A DNA stretch of 64,000 bases, from assembly GCF_013315695.1 (NCBI RefSeq), contig NZ_CP054353.1. One strand, given 5' to 3'. The position numbers were made by a program. This stretch comes from Escherichia coli. GTDB lineage: Bacteria; Pseudomonadota; Gammaproteobacteria; Enterobacterales; Enterobacteriaceae. Below are positions 62,101-64,000 of the stretch, piece after piece. Positions within the stretch are counted from its first letter, which is position 1; each line of letters starts with the position of its first letter.

Positions 62101-64000
62101 CGACCCCGGCAAACGTATCGCCACGCTGGCTGGCGAACCCTTAACGCTGAAGCCAAAAGAATTTGCCCTGCTGGAATTACTGATGCGTAACGCTGGTCGG
62201 GTACTGCCGCGCAAACTGATTGAAGAGAAACTGTATACCTGGGACGAAGAGGTCACCAGTAATGCCGTTGAAGTGCATGTGCATCATCTGCGACGCAAAC
62301 TCGGCAGTGATTTTATTCGTACCGTTCATGGTATTGGCTACACATTAGGTGAGAAATGAAATTTACCCAACGTCTTAGTCTGCGAGTCAGGCTAACGCTA
62401 ATCTTTTTAATTCTGGCCTCGGTGACCTGGCTGCTTTCCAGCTTTGTCGCCTGGAAACAAACAACGGATAACGTCGATGAGTTGTTCGACACCCAACTGA
62501 TGCTGTTTGCCAAACGGTTAAGTACGCTCGATCTCAACGAAATCAACGCGGCGGATCGCATGGCACAGACGCCAAATAAATTAAAACACGGTCATGTTGA
62601 TGACGATGCGCTGACCTTTGCCATCTTTACCCACGACGGCAGAATGGTCCTTAACGATGGCGATAATGGAGAAGATATTCCTTATAGCTATCAACGAGAA
62701 GGTTTTGCTGACGGGCAACTGGTGGGCGATAAAGATCAATGGCGTTTTGTCTGGATGACCTCACCTGATGGCAAATATCGCATTGTTGTTGGTCAGGAAT
62801 GGGAATACCGTGAAGACATGGCGCTGGCGATTGTTGCCGGACAATTGATCCCGTGGCTGGTCGCACTGCCGATTATGTTAATCATCATGATGGTACTACT
62901 GGGTCGTGAACTCGCGCCGCTGAACAAACTGGCGCTGGCACTACGTATGCGTGACCCAGACTCGGAAAAACCACTAAACGCGACGGGCGTACCCAGCGAA
63001 GTGCGCCCACTGGTTGAGTCGTTGAATCAACTGTTCGCCCGCACACATGCGATGATGGTTCGTGAACGACGCTTTACCTCCGACGCAGCTCACGAACTTC
63101 GTAGCCCGTTAACGGCGCTGAAAGTGCAAACCGAAGTTGCTCAGCTCTCTGACGATGATCCGCAGGCGCGGAAAAAAGCGCTGCTCCAATTACATTCCGG
63201 GATCGATCGCGCTACTCGTCTGGTTGATCAACTGCTCACGCTATCGCGGCTGGACTCACTGGATAACCTTCAGGACGTCGCGGAGATCCCGCTTGAAGAT
63301 CTCCTGCAATCGTCGGTGATGGATATTTACCACACGGCGCAGCAGGCGAAAATTGACGTGCGACTGACACTCAATGCCCACGGCATCAAACGTACCGGAC
63401 AACCGCTGTTGCTAAGTTTGTTGGTACGAAACCTTCTGGATAACGCCGTGCGCTACAGTCCACAGGGCTGCGTGGTGGACGTCACGCTGAATGCCGATAA
63501 TTTCATCGTGAGGGATAACGGCCCCGGTGTGACGCCAGAGGCACTGGCGAGAATTGGCGAACGCTTCTATCGCCCACCCGGACAAACCGCTACCGGCAGT
63601 GGACTTGGGCTATCGATTGTCCAGCGAATCGCCAAGCTGCATGACATGAATGTTGAATTTGGGAATGCGGAACAAGGTGGATTTGAGGCGAAGGTAAGCT
63701 GGTAAGGGTAAGACTTTTGCTAAATTCGCAAAAGACTTTGCACATTTTGCTAATTTCACCGTACCGCTCTGTGACGTACTATAGTCGGCAAACGTCTCAC
63801 CTTGAGGTTAAAAAATGAGCAACATCCTGATTATCAACGGCGCGAAAAAATTCGCCCACTCCAATGGTCAACTGAACGACACCCTGACCGAAGTCGCGGA
63901 TGGCACACTGCGCGACCTCGGGCATGATGTCCGCATCGTTCGCGCCGACAGCGACTACGATGTCAAAGCGGAAGTACAAAACTTTCTCTGGGCTGATGTG

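What the first reader, a model, noticed from the sequence alone, without database searches (positions are those of the whole stretch)
63706..63815. Only 110 bp between qseC and mdaB: no room for ygiZ
From memory, K-12 has a small membrane-protein gene (ygiZ) on the opposite strand between qseC and mdaB. It is not present here. I hold this recollection with low confidence.
Basis: partly seen in the sequence, partly recalled or inferred. Interest (0 to 1): 0.2.

Follow-up and report, generated by a model that had tools for sequence, protein, structure and literature searches.

The report
Ancestral short qseC–mdaB spacer, no ygiZ
This E. coli strain has the original 109-bp spacer between qseC and mdaB, and K-12's ygiZ gene at that spot looks like the leftover antidote gene of a small imported toxin–antidote cassette that about 15% of E. 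coli, including this strain, lack; the absence itself is ordinary.

Summary
qseC ends at 63705 and the mdaB ATG is at 63815, so the spacer is 109 bp and holds no ygiZ.

The implied direction is reversed: the short spacer is the ancestral arrangement.
- 76 of 80 Enterobacteriaceae species representatives have a colinear 102–111-bp gap. These include E. albertii, Salmonella, Citrobacter, Klebsiella and Enterobacter.
- Among 5,426 complete E. coli genomes, 822 (15%) have the window's empty junction, O157:H7 among them.
- About 3,340 carry ygiZ alone (K-12 type).
- 1,262 carry an AT-rich three-gene islet, hcp, a 236-aa gene and ygiZ (APEC O1, ST131).

The 236-aa protein has no Pfam or NCBIfam match. 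It carries lytic-transglycosylase-like motifs, and its model matches Slt/MltE and the T6SS muramidase Tse3.

The Hcp–effector–DUF2645 trio recurs at unrelated sites and on plasmids in other Enterobacterales. ygiZ is therefore most likely a T6SS immunity gene, orphaned in K-12; this is inferred and untested.

The window shows nothing unusual, only a conserved intergenic region carrying the probable mdaB promoter. Interest in the finding is low. The side observation about ygiZ is moderately interesting.

The parts
62356..63705 (+). qseC (sensor histidine kinase), complete, 449 aa, stop TAA at 63703-63705
   Evidence: ORF list; PGAP annotation of the identical genome NZ_LR898874.
63706..63814 (.). 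Uninterrupted 109-bp qseC-mdaB spacer: the ancestral 'empty' state of a site that carries ygiZ, or hcp-effector-ygiZ, in other E. coli
   Evidence: It is colinear with the spacer of E. albertii, Citrobacter, Salmonella, Klebsiella, Enterobacter and Kluyvera. The same junction is present in 822 of 5,426 E. coli genomes.
63706..63710 (.). GGGTA, the only bases of the spacer that do not align with K-12 or APEC O1; the islet sits at this position in islet-bearing strains, directly after the qseC stop
   Evidence: blastn homology with the K-12 and APEC gaps restarts at 63711; junction comparison.
63714..63734 (+). Weak hairpin CTTTTGC-TAAATTC-GCAAAAG just downstream of qseC; the TTGC...GCAA core is kept across genera
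   Evidence: Sequence; alignment; RNA fold -13.3 kcal/mol, z -1.2, not better than shuffles; no terminator-consensus hit.
63728..63761 (+). Block GCAAAAGACTTTGCACATTTTGCTAATTTCACCG, nearly invariant from Escherichia to Klebsiella and Enterobacter; probable regulatory site of the mdaB promoter. It contains a marbox-consensus match at 63737-63755 with 2 mismatches
   Evidence: Alignment of 12 genera and species; consensus scan (the match count in the window is not above chance, so the support comes from conservation). mdaB is reported as a mar-regulon member (PMC2989944) and as RamA-dependent in Salmonella (PMC3139621).
63780..63785 (+). TATAGT, a -10-like hexamer upstream of mdaB (inferred)
   Evidence: Sequence; the GTA..AT pattern is conserved. 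It was not picked up by the two-hexamer promoter scan.
63815..64000 (+). mdaB (NADPH:quinone oxidoreductase), first 62 codons; it runs off the end of the window
   Evidence: tblastn 100% over MdaB residues 1-62; annotation.

Best explanation
The window carries the ancestral, uninterrupted qseC-mdaB intergenic region. It is 109 bp long and holds a conserved regulatory block and the probable mdaB-ygiN promoter. Nothing has been removed from it in any simple way. The K-12 arrangement is the derived one. An AT-rich islet (hcp, a 236-aa lysozyme/lytic-transglycosylase-like effector, and ygiZ) was inserted directly after the qseC stop codon in some Escherichia lineage and has since been exchanged among E. 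coli by homologous recombination through the conserved flanks. Three states now coexist: empty (this window, O157:H7; about 15% of complete genomes), ygiZ only (K-12, BL21; about 61%) and the full islet (APEC O1, ST131; about 23%). By inference, the islet is a type VI secretion cargo cassette. In that reading Hcp carries the peptidoglycan-cleaving effector into a neighbouring cell's periplasm. YgiZ, a small polytopic inner-membrane DUF2645 protein with a conserved periplasm-facing loop, is the cognate immunity protein. K-12-type strains would keep it as an orphan immunity gene. The window strain has neither weapon nor antidote at this locus. Shown: the coordinates, the three states and their counts, the ancestral status of the short spacer, and the fold and motifs of the 236-aa protein. 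Inferred: T6SS delivery, peptidoglycan cleavage, and YgiZ acting as immunity.
For: Spacer and absence of ygiZ. K-12 has ygiZ in a 696-bp gap. Third state in APEC O1, hcp + 236 aa + ygiZ in a 1,826-bp gap. Counts: ygiZ in 4,600 of 5,426 genomes, hcp+effector in 1,262, contiguous empty junction in 822.

Ancestral status:
- 76 of 80 species representatives have a 102-111-bp gap, and the gaps align colinearly through the junction.
- The islet has 34% G+C against 51.5% for the window.
- The islet's right junction holds a relic, GGTGA----GTCAGAGTAAGA, of a qseC 3' end of the type seen in Escherichia sp. MOD1-EC7003. None of 2,000 shuffles scored as well. The islet allele therefore derives from an empty allele, not the reverse.
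- The empty allele TAAGGGTAAGAC cannot be produced from the islet allele ...GAGTAAGATCAGAC by a single deletion.

Recombinational exchange: an empty strain (L092) and a ygiZ-only strain (L094) differ by 2 of 1,340 bp in qseC and 1 of 281 bp on the right flank.

Cassette nature:
- The Hcp matches PF05638 and TIGR03344 at 2e-58.
- The effector family has invariant W-I-E82, T-S-x-G-S...Q119 and R-Y-N-R-G.
- The Hcp(159 aa)-effector-DUF2645 trio, with abutting or overlapping stop and start codons, recurs in C. werkmanii and Pseudocitrobacter at this same site. It also occurs in Pectobacterium, on a Serratia conjugative plasmid, in a Chania island, on a Rahnella plasmid and on one short unassigned Logan contig (L100).
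- Solitary and tandem DUF2645 genes also occur.
- ygiZ of K-12 versus APEC O1 gives dN/dS 0.26.
Against: The states were not mapped on a genome phylogeny. B2 and A/B1 strains both carry islet-derived alleles, so the last common ancestor of E. coli may already have had the islet. The window lineage may then have re-acquired an empty allele by recombination rather than never having had the islet. No experiment supports secretion, toxicity or immunity. Immunity proteins of known peptidoglycan-hydrolase effectors are usually soluble periplasmic proteins or lipoproteins, whereas YgiZ is a polytopic membrane protein with only a loop of about 25 aa exposed. The effector model has low-confidence stretches (residues 17-26 and 86-114), and sequence searches of PDB, Pfam and NCBIfam found nothing. 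The marbox match is no better than chance by count.
Confidence: 0.85

Rival explanations
1. Secondary loss: the window lineage once carried ygiZ or the full islet and lost it, either by a deletion or by homologous replacement with an empty allele from another E. coli.
For: Islet-derived alleles occur in 85% of E. coli, in both B2 and A/B1-type strains. The window's flanking region is most similar to B2-type genomes that carry the islet. State switching on a near-identical background is seen between L092 and L094.
Against: A simple deletion is excluded. The window junction TAA-GGGTAAGAC is the outgroup-type sequence (E. albertii TAG-CGGTAAGAC). It lacks both the TCAGA insertion and the qseC-end relic that flank the islet, and no islet remnant remains. 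Replacement by recombination cannot be excluded, but the allele would still be the ancestral type.
Confidence: 0.3
2. Artefact: the short gap is an assembly or sequencing collapse in this one record.
For: None found.
Against: Two independent complete genomes are identical over 24 kb. 822 complete E. coli genomes share the junction. 76 of 80 other species have the same arrangement.
Confidence: 0.01
3. ygiZ is not a T6SS immunity gene but a membrane protein with some other role (envelope stress, solvent tolerance), and its linkage to hcp and the 236-aa gene is incidental. Its absence here would then be a neutral accessory-gene difference.
For: In K-12, ygiZ is activated by BglJ-RcsB (PMC3950696), and a paper links it to sabinene tolerance (PMC7181518, listed; not read). 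K-12 has no partner effector. The polytopic membrane topology is unusual for immunity to a peptidoglycan hydrolase.
Against: The strict order Hcp-effector-DUF2645 with coupled stop and start codons is kept down to 40% effector identity. It holds at eight unrelated genomic or plasmid sites. DUF2645 is a tiny family, 31 clusters among 1.84 billion representatives. Its solitary and tandem copies fit the known pattern of orphan immunity genes.
Confidence: 0.2
4. Without the islet and its strong terminator hairpin, qseBC transcripts read through into mdaB-ygiN, so the empty state couples mdaB to QseBC by co-transcription.
For: The islet brings a strong hairpin directly after the qseC stop (-21.3 kcal/mol, z -4.7). 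The window's own hairpin is weak (-13.3, z -1.2), and no terminator consensus was found.
Against: In Salmonella, which has the same type of 106-bp gap, RT-PCR found no preB-mdaB co-transcript, and mdaB-ygiN behaved as a separate PreA-activated operon (PMC2653508).
Confidence: 0.15

Closest known systems
E. coli K-12 MG1655 qseC (b3026) - ygiZ (b3027) - mdaB (b3028) locus
   Same: Same flanking genes in the same orientation. The last 104 bp before mdaB are 100% identical to window 63711-63814.
   Different: K-12 has 592 extra bp directly after the qseC stop: a terminator hairpin, ygiZ on the minus strand and its BglJ-RcsB-activated promoter region. The gap is 696 bp against 109 bp.
Salmonella enterica preB(qseC)-mdaB intergenic region (106 bp; Merighi et al. 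2009, PMC2653508)
   Same: Same uninterrupted arrangement, similar length, and the same conserved block GCAAAAGACTTTGCACATTTTGCTAATTTCACCG.
   Different: The less conserved parts of the spacer diverge in sequence. The transcript mapping (no co-transcription; mdaB-ygiN PreA-activated) was done in Salmonella, not in an empty-state E. coli.
T6SS peptidoglycan glycoside-hydrolase effector-immunity pairs (Tge family: Tse3/Tsi3; the P. protegens effector–immunity complex 4kt3, which I take from memory to be Tge2/Tgi2)
   Different: No sequence-level membership in any described family. The cassette is linked to an orphan hcp, not to vgrG or a T6SS cluster. The putative immunity protein is a polytopic membrane DUF2645 protein, not a soluble periplasmic protein.
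Orphan T6SS immunity genes (Kirchberger et al. 2017 in Vibrio cholerae; noted for E. coli in the review PMC6730261)
   Same: K-12-type strains keep ygiZ without the effector. Solitary and tandem DUF2645 genes exist elsewhere. Exchange is by homologous recombination.
   Different: The described orphan immunity genes sit inside T6SS clusters or auxiliary arrays. This one sits alone between two housekeeping genes in strains such as K-12, which from my own knowledge (not checked here) has no T6SS.

Membership tests
Ancestral (uninterrupted) Enterobacteriaceae qseC-mdaB spacer | qseC stop to mdaB start about 100-110 bp apart with no intervening gene | tested here: met
   109 bp; 76 of 80 species representatives have 102-111 bp.
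Ancestral (uninterrupted) Enterobacteriaceae qseC-mdaB spacer | Colinear alignment through the junction with outgroup species, including the conserved block upstream of mdaB | tested here: met
   the window aligns end to end with E. albertii, Citrobacter, Salmonella, Klebsiella, Enterobacter and Kluyvera.
K-12-type ygiZ locus | A 110-aa DUF2645 ORF on the minus strand between qseC and mdaB | tested here: not met
   No ORF and no tblastn or blastn match in the window.
T6SS Hcp-effector-immunity cassette (the islet of related loci, absent from the window) | A T6SS tube protein (Hcp/TssD) gene heading the operon | tested here: met
   PF05638 at 1.6e-19; TIGR03344 at 2e-58.
T6SS Hcp-effector-immunity cassette (the islet of related loci, absent from the window) | A toxin-like middle gene followed directly by a small, fast-evolving gene, with the linkage kept across taxa and sites | tested here: met
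   Between genera, identity is 43-64% for YgiZ, 67-74% for the effector and 68-75% for Hcp.
T6SS Hcp-effector-immunity cassette (the islet of related loci, absent from the window) | T6SS/Hcp-dependent export of the effector, and protection by the immunity protein | not testable with these tools
   Needs secretion and competition assays.
Tge (type VI glycoside hydrolase effector) families | Lysozyme-like fold with a catalytic glutamate | tested here: met
Tge (type VI glycoside hydrolase effector) families | Sequence membership in a described Tge family, with a periplasmic soluble immunity partner | tested here: not met
   No Pfam, NCBIfam or PDB sequence match. The partner is a membrane protein with three hydrophobic stretches by my reading of the sequence. 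A 19-residue Kyte-Doolittle scan at a 1.6 cut-off flagged only two of them. So it works like a Tge but is not filed as a member.
MarA/SoxS/Rob (marbox) activated promoter of mdaB | A match to the marbox consensus AYnGCACnnWnnRYYAAAY upstream of the -10 element | tested here: inconclusive
   63737-63755 matches with 2 mismatches, but 16 such matches in the window equal the chance expectation. Cross-genus conservation and the literature support a regulatory role.

The most novel reading that the evidence does not exclude
ygiZ, a K-12 gene of unknown function, is an orphan immunity gene of a previously undescribed mobile T6SS cassette: an orphan Hcp, a new SLT/lysozyme-like effector family, and a DUF2645 membrane immunity protein. 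The qseC-mdaB site is a three-state polymorphism exchanged by recombination. It would predict who can kill whom among E. coli: islet-bearing B2 ExPEC strains are armed, K-12-like strains are protected, and empty strains such as this one and O157:H7 are susceptible.
Probability: 0.55. Interest if true: 0.5.

Novelty: already known. Interest (0 to 1): 0.25.

Why it matters
For the window itself it matters little. The strain has the standard enterobacterial qseC-mdaB spacer and lacks an accessory gene found in 85% of E. coli. The comparison does give a testable function to a K-12 gene of unknown function (ygiZ as T6SS immunity). It also points to an uncharacterised peptidoglycan-targeting effector family carried by major ExPEC lineages, and it corrects the intuitive reading that K-12 shows the reference state and this strain a loss. 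I found no paper describing this islet or DUF2645 in the searchable library.

Tried and rejected
1. Read-through from qseC into mdaB in the empty state. The hairpin energies suggested it. I set it aside because Salmonella, with the same type of gap, shows no co-transcript (PMC2653508).
2. Identifying the islet hcp with the published APEC 'Hcp2B'. Rejected: Hcp2B heads an hcp2B-vgrG2-...-xmtU/xmtV operon of T6SS2 (PMC5874247).
3. The empty allele as a deletion between short direct repeats flanking the islet. Rejected: the predicted product does not match the window junction.
4. Generic signals in 63500-64000. No sigma-70 or terminator consensus hit, no Rfam family, and the spacer's fold energy is not unusual.
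5. Sequence-level annotation of the 236-aa protein. Pfam, NCBIfam and a PDB profile search found nothing. Only the structure comparison was informative.
6. Literature searches for ygiZ, DUF2645, RefSeq protein accessions, orphan hcp and Tge in E. coli found no description of this islet.
7. Phylogroup assignment of the window strain was not achieved with these tools. I could only see that its flanks resemble B2-type genomes.
8. The dN/dS values involving E. whittamii are invalid because my coordinates were out of register. Only the K-12 versus APEC O1 value (0.26) is used.
9. A general att-like duplication. The qseC-end relic is clear in Escherichia islets, but I saw no equivalent in C. werkmanii or Pseudocitrobacter.

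Full report
**1. The observation**

qseC is the ORF 62356..63705 on the plus strand, with its stop TAA at 63703-63705. Reading the ruler, the mdaB ATG is at 63815-63817. The translation MSNILIINGAKKFAH... matches MdaB at 100% over residues 1-62 up to the window end.

The spacer is therefore 63706..63814, 109 bp. The window is 100% identical over 24 kb to E. coli MSB1_4I (NZ_LR898874, human rectal swab), where PGAP annotates the same two genes with the same spacing.

Neither the spacer nor the rest of the window has any similarity to YgiZ or to DNA of the K-12 or APEC O1 gaps. The exception is the shared 104 bp next to mdaB, 63711-63814.

**2.

In MG1655, qseC (b3026) ends at 3171833. ygiZ (b3027, annotated 'DUF2645 domain-containing inner membrane protein') lies at 3171879-3172211 on the minus strand. 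mdaB (b3028) starts at 3172530, giving a 696-bp gap (also the MG1655 derivative).

The recollection was correct and the refuting condition is not met. A pairwise alignment shows the difference is one block of 592 bp placed directly after the qseC stop.

**3. There are three states, not two**

APEC O1 has 1,826 bp at this site. It holds hcp (159 aa), a 236-aa hypothetical gene and ygiZ, all on the minus strand.

| State | Genomes (of 5,426 complete E. coli) | Source |
|---|---|---|
| Any ygiZ match | 4,600 | |
| hcp + 236-aa gene (full islet) | 1,262 | |
| ygiZ only (by subtraction) | about 3,340 | |
| Contiguous empty junction (80-bp probe) | 822 | |

The full islet occurs in strains such as APEC O1 and ST131. 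The empty group includes O157:H7 strains. The empty and ygiZ-bearing counts add up to 5,422 of 5,426.

The K-12 gap matches the APEC O1 gap over positions 1-388 and 520-696. K-12 has 131 unrelated bp where APEC O1 has the 1,261 bp carrying the effector and hcp. The K-12 state is thus a reduced form of the islet.

**4. Which state is ancestral**

I fetched mdaB loci from one genome for each of the 80 best-matching GTDB species. In 76 of them qseC and mdaB are 102-111 bp apart with nothing between. These include E. albertii, Escherichia sp. MOD1-EC7003, Citrobacter, Salmonella, Klebsiella, Enterobacter, Kluyvera, Leclercia and Raoultella.

The four exceptions are:
- E. whittamii, with ygiZ only.
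- Citrobacter werkmanii and a Pseudocitrobacter MAG, each with a diverged full islet at the same site.
- One 144-bp gap (L072), which I did not follow.

The window spacer aligns end to end with the outgroups. The islet has 34% G+C against 51.5% for the window.

Two further details fix the direction:
- To the right of the islet, K-12 has GGTGA----GTCAGAGTAAGA. Apart from a 4-nt gap, this is the 3' end of qseC plus the following bases as found in the empty allele of Escherichia sp. MOD1-EC7003. None of 2,000 shuffles scored as well. The islet allele therefore contains a second, relic copy of the qseC terminus and arose by insertion into an empty allele.
- The E. coli empty junction is TAA-GGGTAAGAC (E. 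albertii has TAG-CGGTAAGAC). It cannot be produced from the islet-side sequence ...GAGTAAGATCAGAC by one deletion.

The window therefore carries the ancestral type of allele.

**5. Is the window lineage 'never inserted' or 'restored'?**

I cannot decide this. Strains S1-SRL-01-C (empty) and Ec-U18 (ygiZ only) differ by only 2 of 1,340 bp in qseC and 1 of 281 bp on the right flank, and they share private variants. The state has therefore switched on a nearly identical background. Given the junction sequences, this must have happened by homologous recombination through the flanks.

The window's neighbourhood is most similar to B2-type genomes that carry the islet. Re-acquisition of an empty allele remains possible; I rate it at about 0.3.

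**6. What the 109 bp contains**

- A weak hairpin, CTTTTGC-N7-GCAAAAG, at 63714-63734.
- A 34-bp block at 63728-63761 that is almost invariant from Escherichia to Klebsiella.
- A TATAGT at 63780-63785.
- A GAGG 7 nt before the ATG.

The block contains a marbox-consensus match at 63737-63755 with two mismatches. By count this is no better than chance in the window. It fits reports that mdaB belongs to the mar regulon (PMC2989944) and is among the most RamA-dependent genes in Salmonella (PMC3139621).

No promoter or terminator consensus and no Rfam family was found.

The islet brings a strong hairpin directly after the qseC stop (-21.3 kcal/mol, z -4.7). The window's hairpin is weak (-13.3, z -1.2). 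I considered read-through from qseC into mdaB. However, in Salmonella, which has a 106-bp gap of the same type, RT-PCR found no preB-mdaB co-transcript, and mdaB-ygiN is a separate PreA-activated operon (PMC2653508).

**7. What the absent element is**

*Hcp.* It is a bona fide TssD (PF05638; TIGR03344 at 2e-58).

*The 236-aa protein.*
- It has no Pfam, NCBIfam or PDB sequence match.
- Its relatives, all labelled hypothetical, are confined to Enterobacterales.
- The alignment shows invariant W-I-E82, T-S-x-G-S...Q119 and R-Y-N-R-G. I read these as the E-S / G-L-M-Q / A-Y-N-x-G motifs of family-1 lytic transglycosylases; that reading comes from my own knowledge.
- Foldseek's top 11 hits are MltE or Slt, with weak E-values of about 0.07.

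*YgiZ.* It is a 110-aa DUF2645 protein.
- By my reading of the sequence it has three hydrophobic segments, though a simple 19-residue hydropathy scan at a 1.6 cut-off flagged only the second and third.
- It has a conserved loop, NKYDWMLExGDSICSIP, and two invariant cysteines, C43 and C109.
- With the N terminus in the cytoplasm, both cysteines would face the periplasm. This topology is inferred.

*Linkage.* The order Hcp(159 aa)-effector-DUF2645, with abutting or overlapping stop and start codons, recurs at these sites:
- Between pagP and an EamA gene in Pectobacterium.
- On a 75-kb Serratia fonticola plasmid carrying traI and traX.
- In an integrase-bearing island of Chania.
- On a Rahnella plasmid, at only 40% effector identity.
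- On a Logan contig.
- At the qseC-mdaB site of C. werkmanii and Pseudocitrobacter.

DUF2645 is a very small family, 31 clusters at 50% identity among 1.84 billion representatives. It also occurs alone or in tandem, as orphan immunity genes do. ygiZ of K-12 versus APEC O1 gives dN/dS 0.26, so the solitary gene is not decaying freely.

Taken together, the most likely reading is a T6SS cargo cassette whose immunity gene survives alone in K-12-type strains. Secretion, enzymatic activity and protection are all inferred.

One feature is atypical: known immunity proteins to peptidoglycan hydrolases are soluble periplasmic proteins or lipoproteins, not polytopic membrane proteins.

**8. Comparison with what is known**

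- The window's spacer is the same kind of region as the Salmonella preB-mdaB spacer.
- The islet works like Tge-type effector-immunity pairs, but I do not file it in a described Tge family. Sequence membership was tested and not met, and the immunity partner is of a different kind.
- The K-12 state resembles the orphan immunity genes described for Vibrio cholerae and mentioned for E. coli (PMC6730261). It differs in sitting alone between housekeeping genes.
- I found no paper that mentions DUF2645 or links ygiZ to T6SS. The known facts about ygiZ are BglJ-RcsB activation (PMC3950696) and, judging only from the title and abstract listed, a link to sabinene tolerance (PMC7181518; not read).

**9. 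Verdict**

What is in the window is ordinary: the ancestral, conserved qseC-mdaB intergenic region, shared with 15% of E. coli and nearly all other Enterobacteriaceae. Interest in the finding is low (0.25).

The most novel reading left open is that ygiZ is an orphan T6SS immunity gene of an undescribed effector family, and that this three-state site predicts antagonism among E. coli lineages. I give this a probability of about 0.55, with moderate interest if true.

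Noticed in passing
window 52237-53009 and 58166-58938: Two 100% identical IS1 copies in inverted orientation, 5,156 bp apart. 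They flank parC-plsC-ftsP, which lies on the plus strand here, inverted relative to K-12 and APEC O1, where parC is on the same strand as ygiS. A TRAP permease fragment sits next to the second IS1. This looks like an IS1-mediated inversion. Only 2 of 5,426 genomes match this 24-kb stretch contiguously.
   Followed up: partly
window 60513-60620 (between ygiS 58911-60512 and ygiV 60621-61103): The mqsR-mqsA toxin-antitoxin pair that K-12 has between ygiS and ygiV is absent here, as in APEC O1. The chicken strain VTB96816v, identical at the qseC-mdaB junction, does have mqsR. This is a second presence/absence polymorphism within 3 kb of the finding.
   Followed up: partly
window about 46804-52264: A gene cluster absent from this position in K-12 lies between ygiQ and the first IS1: a FadR/GntR regulator, a mannitol-dehydrogenase-family protein, a zinc alcohol dehydrogenase, an Ldh-family oxidoreductase and a TRAP substrate-binding protein. 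The TRAP transporter appears to be broken by the IS1 insertion and inversion.
   Followed up: no
L090 30787-36001 (just beyond the window end, same genome): Downstream of ygiN this genome has a MurR/RpiR regulator, an iron-siderophore ABC transporter and a TonB-dependent receptor. K-12 has parE directly after ygiN. APEC O1 and O157 share this extra block.
   Followed up: no
L091 2016-2596 (E. coli O157 strain AR-0429): mdaB is annotated as a frameshifted pseudogene in this O157 genome. I did not check whether this is real or a sequencing error.
   Followed up: no
L001 2295-2425 (K-12 gap positions 389-519): 131 bp upstream of K-12 ygiZ have no counterpart in the APEC O1 islet, where the effector and hcp lie. 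Their origin is unknown. E. whittamii shares the same reduced form.
   Followed up: partly
L017 and L076 (Citrobacter werkmanii; Pseudocitrobacter MAG): Diverged versions of the same three-gene islet sit at the same position, directly after the qseC stop. Proteins are 43-75% identical to APEC O1, and the DNA is 70-73% identical over the coding part. They have different non-coding ends and no visible qseC-end relic. Why the same site is used in three genera is unexplained.
   Followed up: partly
L101 2609-3351 (JGI metagenome contig): Two DUF2645 genes lie in tandem next to an MlaD/ABC transporter cluster with no effector nearby. This is the array-like pattern seen for orphan immunity genes.
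   Followed up: no
NZ_MG591698.1 60214-60921 (353-kb E. coli 'plasmid' record): The effector is found at 97.5% identity on a record filed as a 353-kb E. coli plasmid. It may account for the single plasmid place reported in each. It may be a chromosomal segment on a large plasmid or a misassigned contig. Not examined.
   Followed up: no
L072 (Enterobacteriaceae bacterium MGYG-HGUT-00110): The qseC-mdaB gap is 144 bp instead of 102-111 bp. Not examined.
   Followed up: no
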